Shown here: piece after piece, positions 21,684-44,239 of the stretch | Layout of the letters: the number at the start of each line of letters is the position of its first letter | How positions within the stretch are numbered: position 1 is the first letter of the stretch | IMG/VR virus record: IMGVR_UViG_2565956718_000004 | DNA: 49,168 bases | Reading direction: 5' to 3' (one strand) | DNA from: a virus | Lineage: Duplodnaviria > Heunggongvirae > Uroviricota > Caudoviricetes | Notes under the pieces: model-generated | Databases searched by the model: none | Told to the model about the DNA's origin: nothing | The model's input: the letters and a program-made list of their open reading frames with translations, nothing else | Position numbers and translations under genes: made by a program

Positions 21684-21901
21684 ATCACCACCAACGGATT
21701 GCCCAGACCAGAACAGCAATGGCCACAATACGAATGGCAAATGCCATTGCCCGAATAAGTTCAGCACTCATCTTTTTAAAGTTCACGATTTCAGCGCAAT
21801 GACCAGTTTTGCCAGCCCATACAGCATCGGAGACACAGCAATACCAACAGCCACCCACTTAATAGCAAAAGCCAGCGCTCTGCTGATGTCATCAGTCACT
21901 G

Positions 21902-22033
21902 TCACCCCAGCAGCCCCGACGAAGACAACATCACCCAGGCGAGGGACAGAAAAAGAGCAACCAGCATTAGTGAAAATGAAATACCGACAATCACACACAG
22001 GACCTTTGCCGGCGTTATGAGTTTGTCTGACAT
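21902..22033 (-). CDS. small hydrophobic membrane peptide (43 aa)
   Basis: ATG at 22033-22031 with RBS AAGGGG 6 nt upstream; MSDKLITPAKVLCVIVGISFSLMLVALFLSLAWVMLSSSGLLG; below the track's 60-aa cutoff. Confidence 0.4.
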   Translation of the reverse strand: MSDKLITPAKVLCVIVGISFSLMLVALFLSLAWVMLSSSGLLG

Positions 22034-22325: not shown

Positions 22326-22859
22326 TTATCTGTCGATTCCCCAGCACGCCAGCGCGCTCTCCTGGTCACGACGGGATACCTGACCGTAACAGTTATTTGA
22401 GCGAATACGGCAGTCCCTGCCACCGTCCTTAATCCACCAGCGAATCGCCTCACACGCTCCCCTGCGATCACCTGCATTAATTCGTTTATAAAACGTCGAC
22501 GGAAAACACTTACCGGGGCCAATGTTGTACGGACAGAATGACGCGATCCCCGCTTTCTGGGGTTCACTCAATGGCACTCTGATGTTTTTCTCCACCCATG
22601 CCAGCGCCTTATCACGCTCAATGGCGTTAACCCGGTCGCATTTTTCCTTCGACAACTTCATGCCCGGAACGACAGGTTTGCCATCCACCAGGATGGCACC
22701 GCGGCAGATGGTCCAGATACCCGCGCCATCACGGTATGCCGTGGTGTGGTTACCTTCCTTTTCATCCAGAAACTGGTCGAGAATGTCAGGCGCAGGCGCA
22801 CCAGCGGCAATCAGCGCCAGAACGGCAGCCGACAGGCCGTATCTGATTTTTGCGTTCAT
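22326..22859 (-). CDS. R: SAR endolysin (lysozyme, phage-21 R-like)
   Basis: 177-aa ORF; N-terminal signal-anchor-release segment MNAKIRYGLSAAVLALIAAGA then lysozyme-like catalytic region. Confidence 0.9.
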   Translation of the reverse strand: MNAKIRYGLSAAVLALIAAGAPAPDILDQFLDEKEGNHTTAYRDGAGIWTICRGAILVDGKPVVPGMKLSKEKCDRVNAIERDKALAWVEKNIRVPLSEPQKAGIASFCPYNIGPGKCFPSTFYKRINAGDRRGACEAIRWWIKDGGRDCRIRSNNCYGQVSRRDQESALACWGIDR

Positions 22860-22964
22860 GGATATTTATCAGGATTTATCGGTTTCTGAGCCCTGGATAT
22901 GTTTATCAGTTCCAGCCTGTTGCCTCAGGCTGCTAACAGGTCAATACAATCATGAGGATTATTT

Positions 22965-23237
22965 ATGGACAATAACACCATTTCTCTACAGGAGTTGCTC
23001 GACAGCATTTCCAGGCTTCGGGAAGACGTGAATACCCTTACCGTCGCCTTCTCATATCTGGCATTCTCAATTCCAAGGGAACAGATGCAATCAACGCTGG
23101 CATCAATCCAGTTTGAATCATGCAATCCCAAATGGTCTCAGGAACAACAAGACTCTTTCAGGCGGCTTGCTGTATTACTGGATGAAAAATATGCTGGTAA
23201 AATTACCATTTCGGCGGACTCTTCAGAGAACCAGTAA
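22965..23237 (+). CDS. hypothetical protein (plus-strand ORF inside the lysis cassette)
   Basis: 90-aa ORF with RBS GAGGA 6 nt upstream; 3' end overlaps the convergent 114-aa gene by 35 nt. Confidence 0.4.
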   Translation: MDNNTISLQELLDSISRLREDVNTLTVAFSYLAFSIPREQMQSTLASIQFESCNPKWSQEQQDSFRRLAVLLDEKYAGKITISADSSENQ

Positions 23238-23547
23238 TTATTCCCGGTAGTTTTCCTCTGTAGGTTATCAACACATCCTGCGCCTCTAAAATTACGGGGC
23301 GCTTTTCCGGCGACTGCTCATCCCCTTCACATAACCCGGCAGCAACATCCAGGAAGACCTGTCTGATGCTCCTTCTGGCTGCTGCCTCATAAAACTCCAG
23401 CGCGGCACCTTCAACACGGTCCAGCGAGATGTCCAGGTCAAAAATTTCACCGTCAAAGCGTTTTTTGTCCCGTAACGCTAAAGTTACCGTAACTTTATTC
23501 TCAAAATTGCGGATCCCTTTCACAATCAGTTCATAGTTTTGAGTCAT
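23203..23547 (-). CDS. hypothetical protein inserted between holin and endolysin
   Basis: 114-aa ORF starting 5 nt after the holin stop with RBS GGAGAG. Confidence 0.55.
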   Translation of the reverse strand: MTQNYELIVKGIRNFENKVTVTLALRDKKRFDGEIFDLDISLDRVEGAALEFYEAAARRSIRQVFLDVAAGLCEGDEQSPEKRPVILEAQDVLITYRGKLPGIITGSLKSPPKW

Positions 23548-23551
23548 TGAA

Positions 23552-23767
23552 TTACTCTCCCCGTGCCGCCTTACGACGGTCCTCTCTGATTTTGAAATAC
23601 AGGTTAGTCAGATATGTCAGCAGCCCAAACAGCAGACTCCCCAGCACGCCTATTGCCGCCCACTGAGACGGGGAAACCCTGTCCAGCAACTGCAGGAACC
23701 AGTAGCCCGTTCCCACCGCTGACGTGGTGTATGACACACCTGTTGTGATTTTTTCCATCTGGTACAT
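23552..23767 (-). CDS. S: pinholin S (phage 21 S21-like)
   Basis: 71-aa product from [10 protein letters not shown] (two Met starts 3 codons apart, as in S21); C-terminus ...[22 protein letters not shown] matches S21 from memory. Confidence 0.85.
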
Positions 23768-26034: not shown

Positions 26035-26370
26035 ATGAAGTGGATTGTGATTGATACAGTTATCCAGCCATCATGCGGAATATCTTTTTCAGTCATATGG
26101 AGTAAAATAAAATTAATAATCTGGTATCAATCGGATGCTTTCTTACCTCCTGAAAGTATATTTACACTGACTCACACAGGCATCATGCTCAATAACAAAG
26201 TGCTACCTGTAACCATTTACAACGTAGTACCATTCAATAAAACATTATGGAATTTAATCAAAAACAGCCAGGAATGCCCTACAAATACAGATAACGTATT
26301 GAATGAATGCTTTAATAACCGTTGCACTCTGCAAATATGTCCTTATGGGCTAAAACAACAAAGTCCATAA
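26035..26370 (+). CDS. hypothetical Cys-containing protein in an AT-rich block (moron candidate)
   Basis: 111-aa ORF with RBS AAGGA 7 nt upstream; low GC relative to flanks; opposite strand to the late operon. Confidence 0.4.
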
Positions 26371-26395: not shown

Positions 26396-26615
26396 CAATA
26401 TAAACAGCCCCTCCGGAGAGGGGCTGGAGAGTGGCGCTATGTGCCATTGCATGGTGCCGGGTGCCTCCCGGTGAATTCAGTACCAGCACCTGAATCCGCG
26501 ATTATCCCATATACCTACTCGCTGATTACCCCTCCGCACAGGGGGATTCACCATGCGAAATTTTTTAACAAACTTCCCGCCGGCCAGACAATAATCGCCA
26601 GCCTGAATTATGAGC
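26396..26615. repeat. structured repeat unit, copy 1 (candidate ncRNA element)
   Basis: Starts with hairpin AGCCCCTC-CGGA-GAGGGGCT; shares conserved blocks with copy 2 while paired stems flank unrelated loops. Confidence 0.6.
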
Positions 26616-26868
26616 AACGTGGCATTTTACGGGAAAACTGTTTTCTGCAGTAAAAAGGCCCGCCGGAGCGAGCCTGGAAGGATAGCGGTCATGTGATGCC
26701 GGTTTCCCGGTAACTCAGCATCGGTATCTGAGTCAACGTTTTCTCTACTGGGTCATTTCCGATACGTTCCGCCTTCCGGCAGACTTTCATCACGTCAGAA
26801 AATATAGCACCCTGAGTAACAGGACAGTACTCAGAATTCAGGAAACTGTGACACATCCTGCACAGAAA

Positions 26869-27083
26869 AGCCCCTCCGGAGAGGGGCTGAAGTATAGCCT
26901 AATTTCTGTCTGTCGCATGGTGCCAGGGGCCTCCCGGTAAATTCAGCCTGTCTACTGAATTTGCATGTTCTCTGGATCATACACTTTGCCAGATGCCCCG
27001 CCGCTGAGGGGGATTCACCATGCGATGTAATTTTTAACAAATTCTCCGGCAGCCAGACAATCATCAAGCTGTGGAATTGTGAG
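26869..27083. repeat. structured repeat unit, copy 2 (candidate ncRNA element)
   Basis: Same block structure as copy 1; on the minus strand the 5' hairpin is followed by TTTTCTGTG, i.e. terminator-like. Confidence 0.6.
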
Positions 27084-27316: not shown

Positions 27317-27393
27317 TGGACCGCCATCGGGGACTTGAACCCCGCGCAGCCAGCTTCGAAGGCTGGCGCTCTATCCCGATGAGCTAATGGCGG
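27317..27393 (-). tRNA. tRNA-Arg (anticodon UCG)
   Basis: 77-nt cloverleaf ending CCA: acceptor CCGCCAT/ATGGCGG, D-arm GCTC..GAGC, anticodon stem CCAGC/GCTGG with loop CTTCGAA, T-arm CGGGG-TTCAAGT-CCCCG. Confidence 0.8.
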
Positions 27394-27400
27394 TATGTGA

Positions 27401-27476
27401 TGGTGGCCCTTGCTGGATTTGAACCAGCGACCTGGCGATTATGAGTCGCTCGCTCTCACCACTGAGCTAAAGGGCC
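27401..27476 (-). tRNA. tRNA-Ile2 (anticodon CAU, lysidine type; ileX/ileZ-like)
   Basis: 76-nt sequence GGCCCTTTAGCTCAGTGGTGAGAGCGAGCGACTCATAATCGCCAGGTCGCTGGTTCAAATCCAGCAAGGGCCACCA, close to E. coli ileX. Confidence 0.85.
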
Positions 27477-31851: not shown

Positions 31852-32007
31852 TTACTCCTCAGGTTCGTAAGCTGTGAAGACAGCGACCTCCGTCTGGCCG
31901 GTTCGGATTCGTACCTCGCAGAGGTCTTTCCTCGTTACCAGTGCCGTCACTATGACGGTTAAACAGATGACGATCAGGGCGATTAACATCGCCTTTTGCT
32001 GCTTCAT
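31852..32007 (-). CDS. hok: Hok/Gef family type I toxin
   Basis: 51-aa MKQQKAMLIALIVICLTVIVTALVTRKDLCEVRIRTGQTEVAVFTAYEPEE, the classic Hok sequence pattern. Confidence 0.85.
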   Translation of the reverse strand: MKQQKAMLIALIVICLTVIVTALVTRKDLCEVRIRTGQTEVAVFTAYEPEE

Positions 32008-32160
32008 AGCCTGCTTCTCCTTGACCTTTCGGTCCGTAAGAGGCTAATCTCTATGTGTCGCATAGATATGGCCTCAGATTAATGTTAAGCGTCTTGCAGG
32101 ACGCGTAATGTTAACTGGGGCTTTTCTCTATCTGCCTTTTGGTGTTCATGCCTGAGACAG
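32008..32160. other. hok mRNA leader / expected mok-sok regulatory region
   Basis: Structured region immediately upstream of hok where hok/sok loci carry the overlapping mok frame and antisense Sok RNA; exact sok ends not resolved. Confidence 0.4.
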
Positions 32161-32265
32161 ATAGCCTCAAGCACCCGCAGTCATTCTACTTAACTAAGAT
32201 TTCCCCGCAAACCGTTTTTGTCCGGCACAGTAAATATCCAACTAAACCAATGGCGTTCGCTGTAT

Positions 32266-37319: not shown

Positions 37320-37423
37320 AAGCCCTCCTGAAAATTACCTCATGACCAGAAATTAACATATTAGACGTCAACTAGTTTTGCCGACTCGCGCCAACTATAC
37401 TGGCCGCACCCTTCAGTGCGACA

Positions 37424-38179
37424 TCAAGTCGCGCTTGTTACTGCCTTCGCTGTCTTTTTCCTGTAGCTTTCACCTTTCAGTTCGAACATATATCCGTGAT
37501 GGATCAGCCGGTCTGCCGCCGCCACCGCCATAGTCTCATCCACGAAGATGCTGCCCCACATGCTGAACGGATGGTTACTGGTTATCACCAGGCTCCCACG
37601 TTCATAGCGATGCGCTATTAACTCGAACAGTACTCCCGTTTCGGCGCTGTCGCGTTTGACATAGCCAAGATCATCCACCACTATCACCCGGTAGCGATCC
37701 AGTTTCAGTAGCAGCTCATTCAGTTTCAACTGCGCTCTGGCTTTACGTAGTTCCTGCAACAACTCTCCTGCGCTGTAGAACCGGGCCCGGTAGCCCTGGC
37801 CTACTACGCCATCCACGATCGCTGCCGCCAGATGGCTTTTCCCCAACCCGCTGGCTCCGAACAGCAGAACGTTTTCTCCTGCATCAACCCAGTCTGTCGT
37901 TTCACAGAGTTGCCGGAACTGAGCTCCATTCAGTTCCGGCACCTGACTGAAGTCGTATTCGCTTAGCGTTTTGGCAACTGGCAACCGGGCCTCCTTTTTA
38001 TAACGACGCAGTTTTTCACTCTCGCGCCACAGGAGTTCTTCATTGCATAGCGTCAGAAGATAGCGCGATGGTGTCCAGCCTTCTGCCAGTGCTCGTTTTT
38101 CCAGAGCGTGCCATTCAGCTCCAACTCGTGTCAGGCGTAGTTTACGCAGGCTGCGTTCAAGGTGATGGATATTGCTCAC
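37424..38179 (-). CDS. istB: IS21-family helper ATPase IstB
   Basis: 251-aa ORF with Walker A GASGLGKSH and Walker B VVDDLG; overlaps the istA stop. Confidence 0.9.
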   Translation of the reverse strand: MSNIHHLERSLRKLRLTRVGAEWHALEKRALAEGWTPSRYLLTLCNEELLWRESEKLRRYKKEARLPVAKTLSEYDFSQVPELNGAQFRQLCETTDWVDAGENVLLFGASGLGKSHLAAAIVDGVVGQGYRARFYSAGELLQELRKARAQLKLNELLLKLDRYRVIVVDDLGYVKRDSAETGVLFELIAHRYERGSLVITSNHPFSMWGSIFVDETMAVAAADRLIHHGYMFELKGESYRKKTAKAVTSAT

Positions 38180-39675
38180 TGCGAACCTCCCTTGCCACGC
38201 AGTAGTTGCTCATAACTGCTCAGGTTATGCTGTTTCACATTGACTACCGGCAACGCCTTTTCCTTTATACCCAGGAAGCGCATCAGCCGGTGCAGATCCA
38301 CGTTTCCCGGGGTATTCAGCATCTGCTCCATACCTTTTGCCACGACTGAGATATCGTCGTATCCTGCAGCCAGTTTCAGAGCATGTACCATCAGCCTGCC
38401 TGCCATGTCGGGTTCCAGATGATTACATAAGCGACGCCACAGCCTCCGCCATTCATCGTCTGGCAGGATGTCATTTCTCAGCGTTGCATGGCAGAACGCA
38501 CCGGGCTTTTTTGCCAGACTGTCGATCACATGTCGGAAGTCGATACGACGGGCCCGCGTCTTCCCTTTTTCTGGTCTGACACGTGGGCAGCTCATGACCT
38601 CGCTGCTGCCAACGTAACAGCTCAGACGATCGTCCCATAACCGGACCCGTAACAGTTGACCTACAAGCCGGGAAGGTACGCTGTAGACGACGTGCTTCAC
38701 ATTGATGGTACTGCTGCGGCTAACCCTCACAGTCAGCTCATCATAGTCAGCACTGCGACGAAGCGGCAGCGGTTTCAGATGAAGACGTTCTTCCTTGACC
38801 AGATCCTGATTGTTACGGTTGTGCCGCATAACCTGCTGAGTGATGAAGGCCTGATATTCTTCTATGGTGCTGAAGTCGTTACTGCCCCGCAGTATCAGCG
38901 CCTGACAGATACGCCTTTTCAGATGTCCGTGGGCACTTTCAACCGAGCCATTTTCGTGGCCCCGACCGGCATTATTGTGTACGCCCTGCATTCCGTAGTG
39001 CTGACAGAGAGCAGCATAACGCTCAGTCAGCTCGCGGCGTCCATCTTCGCCCTGTTGTTTCCATGCTGCCCTCAGGCTGTCCGTTTTATGTTCTACCGGC
39101 ACTCCGCCCAGTTGTCCGAGGGCTTCCTGCAGACCTTCAGCCAGAGCAGAGAAGCTCTCACCACCCAGCACAACCCGCATCCAGCTCCAGTGGCTCCATT
39201 CCAGACGGAAGTGATACAACTTATGCGCCAACAACTTACCGGCGATGGTGACAACTACACCTTTCAGTTCAGTAAAGTCCGACAGACCTCGCAGACCGGG
39301 CTGATGTCGCTGGCGGAACATGACCTCCTGCTCTGCACCATACTGTAGCTTCCATTCGCGGACCCGCCGTTGCATTGTTCTTCGAAGGCTGTTGGGGTAC
39401 TGGCCGGGATATTTATCCTGTAGCATCTCCAGCAGAGTTGTTGGTGTCAGAGCCGGCCTCTCTTTCAACAGAGGAACAAGCATGCTGTCCCACACAGCTT
39501 CCAGAGGATCTTTGCGTGTGCGCCAGTGCCGAACACTGTTTTTTGCCCACTCTCCTTTTTCGATCCGACGACCAGAACGGACTGAGATACCAGCCTTCAT
39601 GGCCGAGATATGCTGAGTTATACCTTTCTTACGCTGAGTCATATAGTAACTGACCTGAGAAGTATTGAGCGTCAC
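38176..39675 (-). CDS. istA: IS21-family transposase IstA
   Basis: 499-aa ORF; N-terminal HTH and DDE/rve-like core (HENGSVESAHG). Confidence 0.85.
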   Translation of the reverse strand: MTLNTSQVSYYMTQRKKGITQHISAMKAGISVRSGRRIEKGEWAKNSVRHWRTRKDPLEAVWDSMLVPLLKERPALTPTTLLEMLQDKYPGQYPNSLRRTMQRRVREWKLQYGAEQEVMFRQRHQPGLRGLSDFTELKGVVVTIAGKLLAHKLYHFRLEWSHWSWMRVVLGGESFSALAEGLQEALGQLGGVPVEHKTDSLRAAWKQQGEDGRRELTERYAALCQHYGMQGVHNNAGRGHENGSVESAHGHLKRRICQALILRGSNDFSTIEEYQAFITQQVMRHNRNNQDLVKEERLHLKPLPLRRSADYDELTVRVSRSSTINVKHVVYSVPSRLVGQLLRVRLWDDRLSCYVGSSEVMSCPRVRPEKGKTRARRIDFRHVIDSLAKKPGAFCHATLRNDILPDDEWRRLWRRLCNHLEPDMAGRLMVHALKLAAGYDDISVVAKGMEQMLNTPGNVDLHRLMRFLGIKEKALPVVNVKQHNLSSYEQLLRGKGGSQ

Positions 39676-39775
39676 GCCATTTCCTGTTGGATCATGTAAA
39701 TGACACTCAGGTTACAAAACCGGCCAGAATAATCGGCGCCAGGCGGACTGAGTTATTGTCGTCTCATATTAACAC

Positions 39776-43366: not shown

Positions 43367-44239
43367 TTCACCCTCCTGAGGGTTGGTGATTAAGGAGTTC
43401 TCCACGGGTGAGGTGGAGTGCGTGCGCCGGACACGGGTGAGCATCCGGCACTGACAGTTTACTGAAAGGATATTTCCCTGAAAAGTCAGACCATAACGCG
43501 AAAGCGCTCGGTGAGGTAGCTGGTTCATAGATAGCCTGTCGTTAAATTTTCGTCGACCGTGCGCTTCCGGTTGTGGCAATCCGCGAAATGGCGCGGCGGT
43601 AAGTATGGCGGGGTTATTCCTTCCCCCGTTGAGGACACCGGGTTGTCAGGTTGACCATACGCTTAAGTGACAACTCCGCTGCAACGCCCTCTGTTATCAA
43701 TTTTCTGGTGACTTTTGGCGGTATCAGTTCTACTCCGTGACTGCTCTGCCGCCCTTTTTAAAGTGAATTTTGTGATGCGGTGAATGCGGCTCAGCGCACG
43801 CGGAACAGTTAAAACAAGCGGTCTTTTACGGGCGTAACGGGAATGCTCTGTATCCGACGTTAATTGTTAACTGGTTAACGTCACCTGGAGGCACCAGGCA
43901 CCGCATCAACAAAGTTCACTTCGGTGATGAAAGGTAGAGAAAATGTTGAATGTAGCTATTGAAAACCAGAACGGGTGGAATTATAGTGCACCTGCACCTC
44001 ATAAAACGGGTGCCGGGCGTGGAAACCCGAAATCATTCACGGCGCATAACCGCGCTCAGGCGGTTTTTTTATGCGTTAAGCACAGCCACATTCGCATTAT
44101 GGTGGGGCGTGCAGGGCAGCCGCAAGGCTGGCCGGGTTCCGTGATGACCGGTATTTCCACCCCTGTACGTCTCACCACCCTTATGGTCGTGGAAAACCTC
44201 GGTGGTGAGTTAATCAAATTCATCGCGGAGGCTGCCATC

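What the first reader, a model, noticed from the sequence alone, without database searches (positions are those of the whole stretch)
22860..23551. Convergent overlapping genes inserted between pinholin and SAR endolysin
Seen: a 114-aa minus-strand gene (23203-23547, RBS GGAGAG, starts 5 nt after the holin stop) and a 90-aa plus-strand gene (22965-23237, RBS GAGGA) whose 3' ends overlap by 35 nt. In the phage-21 cassette, as I recall it, S and R are adjacent. Neither protein resembles anything I recognise. A convergent pair inside the late operon could be a moron with antisense regulation.
Basis: seen in the sequence. Interest (0 to 1): 0.5.

Follow-up and report, generated by a model that had tools for sequence, protein, structure and literature searches.

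The report
ydfR plus a reverse moron gene
Between the holin and endolysin of this E. coli prophage sit an ordinary late phage gene (ydfR) and a small backwards-facing add-on gene of unknown function; this is the forward/reverse "moron" layout already annotated in phages HK97 and HK022, so it is a new example of a known arrangement, not a new system.

Summary
In detail: a 114-aa minus-strand ORF (23203-23547) and a 90-aa plus-strand ORF (22965-23237) converge and overlap by 35 nt.

The lysis cassette itself is on the minus strand, so only the 90-aa gene is "backwards".
- **114-aa gene:** this is ydfR (Pfam DUF1327, E 7e-43). Matches to the ydfR part are found in 4304 of 5426 complete E. coli genomes. 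Its N-domain is 81% identical to K-12 YdfR, which a 2026 paper reports to bind RNase E and co-purify with RNA.
- **90-aa gene (phrog_2411):** it is really coding (pN/pS 0.21) and predicted to be an acidic three-helix protein with no informative fold match. It lies in a ~292-bp block that otherwise near-identical cassettes lack.
- **Its relatives:** in Citrobacter, Yersinia and metagenomic phage tail operons they always lie tail-to-tail with a late-strand gene ending in I-x-G-S/D-L-x-x-P. They are preceded by a conserved, covarying leader RNA that is not in Rfam.
- **The leader:** the same leader precedes many unrelated small cargo genes, including HK97 gp23 (annotated "reverse moron") and HK022 gp23.
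- **The window's copy is reduced:** it has no canonical leader and no terminators.

Function and antisense regulation remain untested.

Verdict: new member of a known kind, moderate interest.

The parts
23552..23767 (-). Class II (phage 21 S-type) holin, 71 aa. Context gene that starts the lysis cassette.
   Evidence: Pfam Phage_holin_2_1 at E 2e-32. RefSeq annotates a class II holin at the same place in a 100% identical locus.
23326..23547 (-). ydfR N-terminal domain (residues 1-74), predicted beta-beta-beta-alpha fold.
   Evidence: Pfam DUF1327 at E 7e-43. 81% identical to K-12 YdfR over residues 1-74. AF2 model gives E5-14, E18-27, E34-43, H50-73 with pLDDT of about 65-87. K-12 YdfR residues 1-72 suffice for RNase E binding (PMC13232886).
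23203..23325 (-). ydfR C-terminal tail (residues 75-114 plus stop), ending ...ITGSLKSPPKW. It is the most conserved part of E. coli YdfR proteins and is absent from K-12 YdfR. The last 2 codons belong to the ORF90 block.
   Evidence: Nearly invariant columns are concentrated at residues 71-112 in alignment A5. AF2 confidence is low here, pLDDT about 43. Tail variants are PKW, PESQP, PLA or long extensions. All ORF90-bearing loci examined end in PPKW whatever the N-domain allele.
22965..23237 (+). ORF90: protein-coding reverse moron gene. 90 aa, net charge -5, predicted three-helix bundle with a disordered tail (residues 79-90).
   Evidence: phrog_2411 over its full length at E 9e-59. pN/pS 0.21. 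The + frame is best and is the only stop-free frame against distant homologues. AF2 gives H8-35, H38-52, H59-77 at pLDDT 74.5. No transmembrane segment: maximum KD19 is 0.75.
22920..23211 (.). Block present here but absent from ORF90-less holin-ydfR-lysozyme cassettes (indel boundaries are approximate).
   Evidence: Alignment A1 with S1-SRL-01-C, BP-4795 and an O157:H7 prophage.
22862..22903 (+). Conserved promoter-like block, ATATTTATCAGGAT-N15-CCCTGGATATGTT. It is shared with the region upstream of the leader RNA in HK97, HK022 and metagenomic cassettes, and contains a -10-like TATGTT at 22898-22903. Function as a promoter is inferred, not shown.
   Evidence: Sequence comparisons. Only a weak sigma-70 match; the consensus scanner does not call it.
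22913..22932 (+). Short hairpin CAGCCTG-TTGCCT-CAGGCTG. It looks like a remnant of the UCAGCC...GGCUGA pairing of the canonical leader. The canonical P1 and P2 hairpins are missing.
   Evidence: Fold; comparison. Covariance model R1 finds no match here at E up to 10.
22326..22859 (-). Lysozyme (SAR-type endolysin R), 177 aa. Context gene that closes the slot.
   Evidence: Pfam Phage_lysozyme at E 1e-23; RefSeq annotation.

Best explanation
The interval holds two things of different standing.

(1) ydfR is a regular late gene of S21-type lysis cassettes, read from the Q-dependent late transcript straight after the holin. By homology to K-12 YdfR, its N-domain is an RNase E- and RNA-binding module. 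This is inferred from 81% identity, not shown for this protein.

(2) ORF90 is a reverse moron. It is a small protein-coding gene on the opposite strand, sitting in a cargo slot between the 3' end of ydfR and the next late gene (R). The slot belongs to a family of cassettes, of which HK97 gp22/gp23 and HK022 gp22/gp23 are the annotated members. In that family a conserved promoter-like block plus a structured 5' leader RNA precedes variable small cargo genes against the direction of late transcription, tail-to-tail with a small late-strand gene.

Inferred mechanism: ORF90 is transcribed from its own upstream block, probably in the lysogen as morons generally are, and is shut off when late transcription runs through it.

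ORF90-family genes in four genera or contexts always face a late-strand protein ending in I-x-G-S/D-L-x-x-P, and no other cargo type examined does. I therefore infer that ORF90 acts on or with that tail of YdfR. This last step is the weakest.
For: - **Family assignments:** DUF1327 at E 7e-43; phrog_2411 at E 9e-59.
- **ydfR position:** directly after the holin in K-12 Qin, BP-4795, O157 and other prophages; matches in 4304 of 5426 genomes.
- **K-12 YdfR:** binds the RNase E N-terminal half and co-purifies with RNA (PMC13232886). The window protein is 81% identical over residues 1-74.
- **ORF90 is coding:**
- **~292-bp indel** against isogenic cassettes.
- **Fixed order:** all 80 IMG/VR loci with ORF90 have the order lysozyme-ORF90-ydfR-holin, including loci with a 67%-identical ydfR allele.
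- **Distant homologues:** ORF90 relatives in Citrobacter, Yersinia and a metagenomic phage tail operon are each convergent with a late-strand ORF carrying the tail motif. None of 71 other cargo pairs has the motif.
- **Leader RNA:** the P1 hairpin is 98% paired, with double changes at 4 of 8 pairs and G-U pairs that fit only the cargo strand. Model R1 finds the leader upstream of ORF90 homologues, of gp06 of Stx2 phage 86 in the same S-ydfR-R slot, and in HK022 and HK97.
- **Annotation precedent:** HK97 and HK022 records label the pair "moron" and "reverse moron".
Against: - The window's own copy fails the leader test: no R1 match at E up to 10.
- It has no terminator on either strand, whereas HK97 and HK022 have both.
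- No consensus sigma-70 promoter is called upstream of ORF90 or of the canonical leader.
- There are no expression data.
- Sequence homology of ORF90 to HK022 gp23-like cargo is not established (hhalign E 0.008, probability 5%).
- YdfR shows no significant similarity to HK97 gp22-like partners.
- The link between ORF90 and the tail motif could partly reflect physical linkage, because the two genes overlap.
- YdfR proteins with the same tail are common without ORF90, so the tail does not need ORF90.
Confidence: 0.6

Rival explanations
1. The plus-strand unit works mainly as an antisense RNA. With no terminator after ORF90, its transcript runs antisense into ydfR and the holin. It would then silence leaky late transcripts of the resident prophage, or late mRNA of superinfecting relatives.
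For: - No terminator-like site lies between the ORF90 stop and the holin.
- Convergent 3' overlap is kept in every context examined: 7, 14, 20, 35 and 47 nt.
- There is a precedent: STnc6030, an antisense RNA inside the late genes of prophage BTP1, mediates superinfection exclusion (PMC7067206).
Against: - The ORF shows clear protein-level purifying selection and conserved length over 38-100% identity.
- A good ribosome-binding site is present.
- Canonical relatives in HK97 and HK022 end at a terminator right after the reverse ORF, so long antisense read-through is not a family feature.
- An antisense role could still exist alongside the protein.
Confidence: 0.12
2. YdfR (through its tail) and ORF90 form a toxin-antitoxin, abortive-infection or other defence pair.
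For: The genes are tightly linked, convergent and overlapping. They travel together between unrelated late-operon positions. ORF90 is never seen without a partner carrying the tail motif.
Against: - No PADLOC model matches either protein or the alternative pairs.
- YdfR with the same tail is widespread without ORF90, which a toxin needing its antitoxin would not allow.
- Overproducing K-12 YdfR changed only a few transcripts. That protein lacks the tail, so this point is weak.
- Neither protein has a membrane segment or a recognisable enzymatic fold.
Confidence: 0.07
3. Both proteins are lysis accessories that tune pinholin/SAR-endolysin timing, and ORF90 is made during lytic growth.
For: Both lie inside the lysis cassette. 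A genetic screen cited in PMC13232886 linked ydfR to envelope integrity.
Against: - ORF90 is on the strand opposite to the late transcript.
- Its homologues, with their partners, also sit in tail operons far from any lysis gene.
- Many working cassettes lack ORF90, and K-12 Qin has ydfR abutting the lysozyme gene.
Confidence: 0.08
4. ORF90 is a non-functional or spurious ORF in a spacer, and its conservation reflects the late mRNA or recent spread.
For: Most copies in public data are nearly identical. The antisense frame -1 shows an equally low pN/pS.
Against: - Against 59-67% identical homologues, only the + frame is free of stops. It has the highest identity and BLOSUM score, and second codon positions change least.
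- Length, start codon and ribosome-binding site are kept.
- The family reaches 25-40% identity in other genera.
Confidence: 0.02

Closest known systems
HK97 gp22 ("moron product") / gp23 ("reverse moron product") and HK022 gp22 / gp23 ("srb"), between tail genes I and J
   Same: - A small late-strand ORF and a small opposite-strand ORF converge and overlap at their 3' ends, wedged between conserved late genes.
- The same promoter-like block (ATCAGGRT...CCCTGGWTAnnGT) lies upstream of the reverse gene.
- ORF90 homologues in other genera, and the alternative cargo in the same E. coli slot (Stx2 phage 86 gp06), carry the same leader RNA as HK97 and HK022.
   Different: - The slot is in the lysis cassette (holin-ydfR-[ ]-lysozyme), not the tail operon.
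- The window copy lacks the leader's P1/P2 hairpins and both terminators.
- The forward partner is the tail of a DUF1327 protein rather than a gp22-like protein; there is no significant similarity.
- ORF90 is not demonstrably homologous to gp23 of either phage.
E. coli K-12 YdfR (Qin prophage, P76160, DUF1327)
   Same: Same Pfam family, same position right after the holin, and 81% identity over residues 1-74. That is the part reported to be sufficient for binding the RNase E catalytic half.
   Different: K-12 YdfR has an unrelated C-terminus (residues 75-103). It lacks the ITGSLKxPP tail, abuts the lysozyme gene, and has no reverse gene.
Lambda bor (opposite-strand moron next to the lysis genes; from my own knowledge, and seen next to Rz in Stx2 phage 86)
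   Same: A lysogen-type accessory gene on the strand opposite to the late operon, lying within or beside the lysis cassette.
   Different: bor encodes an outer-membrane lipoprotein with a known serum-resistance phenotype and lies after Rz. ORF90 is a cytoplasmic three-helix protein of unknown function, inside the cassette, overlapping its neighbour.
STnc6030 antisense RNA of Salmonella prophage BTP1 (PMC7067206)
   Same: A transcript made against the late operon of a prophage; a possible model for an antisense effect of the ORF90 transcript.
   Different: STnc6030 is a non-coding RNA of more than 700 nt with demonstrated exclusion activity. ORF90 is a conserved protein-coding gene, and no transcript data exist for it.

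Membership tests
YdfR / DUF1327 (PF07041) | Match to the Pfam model above its gathering score | tested here: met
   145.2 bits against a cut-off of 25, E 7e-43, residues 1-111.
YdfR / DUF1327 (PF07041) | N-terminal domain homologous to K-12 YdfR | tested here: met
   81% identity over residues 1-74, E 9e-43.
YdfR / DUF1327 (PF07041) | Gene lies directly downstream of a class II holin in a lambdoid lysis cassette | tested here: met
   4-nt gap after the holin stop. Same layout in K-12 Qin, BP-4795, O157 and other prophages.
YdfR / DUF1327 (PF07041) | Binds the RNase E N-terminal half and co-purifies with RNA (reported for K-12 YdfR) | not testable with these tools
HK97/HK022-type forward + reverse moron pair | Small ORF on the strand opposite to the late operon, between conserved late genes | tested here: met
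   ORF90 on the plus strand between ydfR and the lysozyme gene, both minus. It is absent from isogenic cassettes.
HK97/HK022-type forward + reverse moron pair | Convergent with, and overlapping the 3' end of, a small late-strand ORF | tested here: met
   35-nt overlap here; 123 nt in HK97 and 81 nt in HK022.
HK97/HK022-type forward + reverse moron pair | Structured leader RNA (covariance model R1) upstream of the reverse ORF | tested here: not met
   No R1 match in the window near ORF90 at E up to 10. Matches elsewhere: HK022 2e-24, HK97 9e-14, phage 86 5e-9, and ORF90 homologues L089, L093, L094 and L088 at 2e-10 to 3e-6.
HK97/HK022-type forward + reverse moron pair | Conserved promoter-like block ATCAGGRT-N-CCCTGGWTAnnGT upstream | tested here: met
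   Window 22868-22903. Same block in HK97, HK022 and IMG/VR loci.
HK97/HK022-type forward + reverse moron pair | Intrinsic terminators after the reverse ORF and at the end of the unit | tested here: not met
   None in window 22860-23550. Present in HK022 and HK97.
HK97/HK022-type forward + reverse moron pair | Cargo protein homologous to HK022 gp23-like proteins | tested here: inconclusive
   hhalign E 0.008, probability 5%, 36 columns aligned.
HK97/HK022-type forward + reverse moron pair | Independent transcription from the repressed prophage | not testable with these tools
   No expression data are available. The promoter is only inferred.
phrog_2411 | Full-length match to the family profile | tested here: met
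   E 9e-59, residues 1-90 on profile positions 1-90 of 90.
Known anti-phage defence or toxin-antitoxin systems | Match to a PADLOC model, or a toxin-like membrane peptide | tested here: not met
   No PADLOC match for either protein. Maximum 19-residue hydropathy is 0.75 and 0.69.
Any Rfam RNA family within 22700-23700 | Match at or near the gathering score | tested here: not met
   Best hit 17.4 bits against a gathering score of 40, E 0.8.

The most novel reading that the evidence does not exclude
The leader is an undescribed cis-regulatory RNA platform. It has at least 120 copies in IMG/VR, is not in Rfam, and shows covariation specific to the cargo strand. It expresses dozens of unrelated small cargo proteins against the late operons of lambda-like phages. 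Each cargo would work together with the C-terminal tail of its convergent late-strand partner. For this locus, lysogen-made ORF90 would recognise the ITGSLKxPP tail of the RNase E/RNA-binding protein YdfR, for example to neutralise YdfR from superinfecting relatives or to gate late-mRNA fate at induction.
Probability: 0.15. Interest if true: 0.7.

Novelty: new member of a known kind. Interest (0 to 1): 0.4.

Why it matters
The full interval is present (at least 80% covered) in about a fifth of complete E. coli genomes, 1129 of 5426, yet neither gene has an assigned role in the phage.

Placing ORF90 in the HK97-type reverse-moron family turns an isolated hypothetical protein into one member of a large cargo-slot system that can be searched for. 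That system has a shared leader RNA, at least three insertion positions (tail M/L, after tail I, and holin/endolysin) and many unknown small proteins. Slots of this sort are where exclusion, defence or anti-defence factors are often found.

It also makes one question testable: whether the conserved C-terminal tail of YdfR, a recently reported RNase E interactor, is the target of the gene that overlaps it.

Tried and rejected
**No informative result**
- PADLOC scan of both proteins and of the alternative pairs from Stx2 phage 86 and PhiR5_1: nothing.
- NCBIfam: nothing useful.
- Rfam on the whole window and on the interval: no family in the interval. Rfam on canonical leader loci: nothing.
- PDB sequence search with both family profiles: nothing.
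- Pfam and PHROGs scans of ten other cargo proteins: all of unknown function, apart from one DUF1883 match.

**Homology tests that failed or were weak**
- hhalign of YdfR against HK97 gp22-like partners: not significant.
- An iterated HMM of the YdfR N-domain found DUF1327-like partners in only 6 of 120 leader loci. So "the forward partner is always YdfR-like" was dropped.
- hhalign of ORF90 against HK022 gp23-like cargo: weak.

**Ideas considered and dropped**
- The minus-strand 68-aa ORF 22925-23131 as the real gene, because it has the same low pN/pS. Rejected: that frame carries stops in the window and in every homologue compared, and scores lower at high divergence.
- P0062 "ybl58" (44% identity) as a distant homologue. 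It is a double-frameshift copy.

**Searches that failed**
- Literature searches for ybl58, the RefSeq accessions and "reverse moron" found nothing.
- IMG/VR scans with two distant ORF90 relatives found nothing.

Full report
**1. The observation**

The window carries a lambdoid lysis cassette on the minus strand:
- a phage-21-type class II holin (23552-23767; Pfam Phage_holin_2_1, E 2e-32);
- a 114-aa ORF (23203-23547);
- a lysozyme (22326-22859);
- an Rz-type gene further on.

A 90-aa ORF (22965-23237) lies on the plus strand between the 114-aa ORF and the lysozyme. The two small ORFs overlap by 35 nt at their 3' ends. Only the 90-aa gene is backwards.

**2. The 114-aa gene is ydfR**

It matches Pfam DUF1327 at 145 bits (E 7e-43) and phrog_406. 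RefSeq calls the identical protein "YdfR family protein".

A ydfR gene directly after the holin is the norm. Sequence matching the ydfR part of the interval is found in 4304 of 5426 complete E. coli genomes. K-12 Qin, phage BP-4795, O157:H7 prophages and others show holin-ydfR-lysozyme with nothing in between.

The protein has two parts.
- Residues 1-74 are 81% identical to K-12 YdfR. The model folds them as three strands plus a helix at moderate confidence.
- Residues 75-114 are the most conserved stretch among E. coli YdfR proteins, but they are modelled with low confidence and are replaced by an unrelated sequence in K-12.

After the motif ...ITGSLKxPP the family diverges. It ends in PKW, PESQP or PLA, or carries extensions of 60-155 residues.

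A 2026 paper (PMC13232886) reports the following for K-12 YdfR:
- it binds the N-terminal catalytic half of RNase E in two-hybrid and co-purification assays;
- residues 1-72 suffice for this;
- RNA co-purifies with it;
- overproduction changes few transcripts.

**3. ORF90 is a real gene**

It matches phrog_2411 over its full length (E 9e-59) and has no Pfam family.

Against 81-83% identical copies, pN/pS is 0.21. One antisense frame gives a similar value, as expected when third positions coincide. Against 59-67% identical homologues the plus frame is the only one without stops. It has the highest identity and BLOSUM score, and second codon positions change least.

The family is very small. There are 62 clusters in 5.8 billion, and 21 representatives in 1.84 billion at E up to 0.001. 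Members are 81-97 aa long and go down to 25-40% identity.

The model is an acidic three-helix bundle with a disordered tail at residues 79-90. That tail is the part encoded antisense to the ydfR 3' end. There is no membrane segment, no specific structural neighbour and no solved relative.

**4. ORF90 sits in a slot**

A strain with an identical holin and lysozyme protein and a 94%-identical YdfR lacks about 292 bp (about 22920-23211). BP-4795 and an O157 prophage lack it too. The right-hand junction falls in the last two or three codons of ydfR.

Every ORF90-bearing ydfR examined ends in PPKW, even where the N-domain is a 67%-identical allele. So the ORF90 block brings its own end of ydfR.

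In the same slot, Stx2 phage 86 and PhiR5_1 carry other opposite-strand ORFs (104 and 86 aa), and their YdfR is extended in frame.

The ORF90-less cassettes keep the sequence upstream of ORF90. In BP-4795 they also keep the first ~16 nt of the leader described below, fused to the ydfR end. They therefore look like deletion derivatives. This is inference.

**5. Relatives elsewhere show a two-gene unit**

All 80 IMG/VR loci with close ORF90 copies have the same order of genes. More distant homologues are each convergent with, and overlap, a late-strand ORF whose product ends in the same motif:
- a Citrobacter contig: ...EKITGSLRAPIKL;
- an unassigned contig: ...IIGSLITPPEL;
- Citrobacter meridianamericanus, upstream of a different holin/endolysin/Rz set: ...EKITGSLRVPMKL;
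- Yersinia massiliensis, after a gpI-like tail gene: ...EKITGSLFAP...;
- two metagenomic phages, between gpM-like and gpL-like tail genes...IFGDLKKPPSY.

The rest of these partner proteins is unrelated to DUF1327. The overlap ranges from 7 to 47 nt. In the 7-nt case the motif lies outside ORF90, so its conservation is not a by-product of the overlapping frame. None of 71 other cargo/partner pairs has the motif.

**6. A conserved leader RNA**

Upstream of these distant homologues lies a conserved non-coding stretch:
- a promoter-like block (ATCAGGRT ... CCCTGGWTAnnGT);
- then UCAGCCC;
- a hairpin whose sequence varies while its pairing is kept;
- a second hairpin with the loop GAUGGCUGAUUA;
- the Shine-Dalgarno sequence.

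In those contigs the leader precedes many unrelated small ORFs of 62-211 aa (mostly 62-99 aa). All those scanned are of unknown function. Most of them converge on a small late-strand ORF.

On 49 distinct leaders the first hairpin is 98% paired. It has double changes at 4 of 8 pairs, and no shuffle or slid control comes close. Many pairs are G-U and would be C-A on the other strand, so the structure belongs to the cargo-strand RNA. The UCAGCC/GGCUGA pairing is invariant in this set, but the search pattern fixed it, so that says nothing.

The element is not in Rfam.

A covariance model built from it finds the leader in loci that were not obtained with the pattern:
- upstream of ORF90 homologues (E 2e-10 to 3e-6);
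- upstream of gp06 of Stx2 phage 86 in the same slot (E 5e-9);
- in HK022 (E 2e-24) and HK97 (E 9e-14).

The cassettes sit mainly between gpM-like and gpL-like tail genes. They also occur after gpI, and between holin and lysozyme.

**7. This architecture is already annotated**

In the HK97 record the leader precedes gp23, labelled "reverse moron product". It is convergent with and overlaps gp22, labelled "moron product", between tail genes I and J. HK022 has the same arrangement, gp22 and gp23 "srb". From memory, these labels come from the paper that introduced the term moron (Juhala et al. 2000); I could not read it here. Both phages have a terminator just after the reverse ORF and another at the end of the unit.

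**8. Where the window's copy departs**

The model finds no leader next to ORF90. What remains is:
- the promoter-like block (22862-22903);
- a 7-bp hairpin (22913-22932) that resembles the UCAGCC/GGCUGA pairing without the inner hairpins;
- a similar Shine-Dalgarno region.

There is no terminator on either strand. That makes sense for the minus strand, because the lysozyme must be read from the late transcript. On the plus strand it means any ORF90 transcript would continue antisense into ydfR and the holin.

No consensus sigma-70 promoter is called here or in HK022. Transcription of ORF90 is therefore inferred from family context only.

**9. How it most likely works**

Shown:
- the identity of ydfR;
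- the coding status of ORF90;
- the indel;
- the conserved convergent pairing with motif-bearing partners;
- the leader RNA in relatives.

Inferred:
- ORF90 is transcribed on its own, against the late operon, mainly in the lysogen, and is switched off by late transcription;
- ORF90 acts on or with the YdfR tail.

The antisense-RNA reading has a precedent in STnc6030 of BTP1 and may apply in addition. It cannot be the whole story, given the selection on the protein. A toxin-antitoxin or defence reading is weakened by the lack of PADLOC matches and by the many YdfR proteins that carry the same tail without ORF90.

**10. Verdict**

The finding is real but largely ordinary. One gene is a well-known DUF. 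The other is a member of the forward/reverse moron arrangement known from HK97 and HK022, here in a reduced form inside the lysis cassette.

Two by-products may be new: the covarying leader RNA shared by many cargo genes, and the specific link between the ORF90 family and the I-x-G-S/D-L-x-x-P tail. Both deserve follow-up. The first of them is not present in this window.

Noticed in passing
HK022 NC_002166 13978-14093 (L216 2544-2615); HK97 (L215 2544-2614); L095-L214 (IMG/VR): A conserved leader of about 72 nt, with a covarying hairpin, precedes many unrelated small opposite-strand ORFs in late operons of lambda-like phages. It is not in Rfam. It has at least 120 IMG/VR copies, and 27 INPHARED records match by blastn.
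   Followed up: partly
L085 (BP-4795) 2100-2130, against L002 (Stx2 phage 86) 3109-3140: In ORF90-less cassettes the last ydfR codons (PPLA*) are encoded by what looks like the first ~16 nt of the leader (TCAGGCCAGCGGTGG). This suggests the cargo was deleted by recombination between the leader hairpin and the similar CGGCGGAC in the ydfR tail.
   Followed up: partly
L039 3268-4149: One IMG/VR contig has about 880 bp between ORF90 and ydfR that encode a second lysozyme copy and an Rz fragment. This is either a duplication within the lysis cassette or an assembly artefact.
   Followed up: partly
P0062 ("ybl58", E. coli): A 90-aa protein 44% identical to ORF90 is a double-frameshift version of the same gene: residues 1-25 and the last 10 match, and the middle is out of frame.
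   Followed up: yes
P0063, P0065, P0073 and others: Several database proteins of 139-187 aa combine the holin Pfam domain with DUF1327. This implies holin-YdfR read-through or fused gene calls in some contigs.
   Followed up: no
window 26035-26370 (+), 26396-26584 (-), 26860-27053 (-), 27320-27476 (-): An IraM-like anti-adapter gene lies on the opposite strand, next to two copies of the sRNA STnc100 and two tRNA genes (Arg and Ile in the RefSeq annotation of the near-identical locus). All sit between the antiterminator and the NanS-type esterase upstream of the holin.
   Followed up: no
window 31852-32176: A hokD toxin gene with a sok antitoxin RNA (Rfam 106.7 bits) lies in the early region of the same prophage.
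   Followed up: no
window 43703-44182: DicF, isrK and C4 antisense RNA matches lie within 500 nt of each other (Rfam).
   Followed up: no
window 37359-39768: An IS21-family ISEc10 copy. In strain Ecol_316, whose prophage is 99.99% identical over window 14663-35551, the same IS instead interrupts the portal gene.
   Followed up: partly
window 21685-22033 (-): RefSeq annotates three tiny ORFs (28, 51 and 43 aa) between the lysozyme and Rz genes. Stx phages carry the antirepressor gene ant at this position.
   Followed up: no
HK97 gp22 (L215 2762-3124) against YdfR residues 47-107: hhalign pairs YdfR ...AAGLCEG...ITYRGKLPGIITGS with gp22 ...IAGLKTPAQ...NIISPGIQPGYRLGS. The match is suggestive to the eye but not significant (probability 0.5%).
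   Followed up: partly
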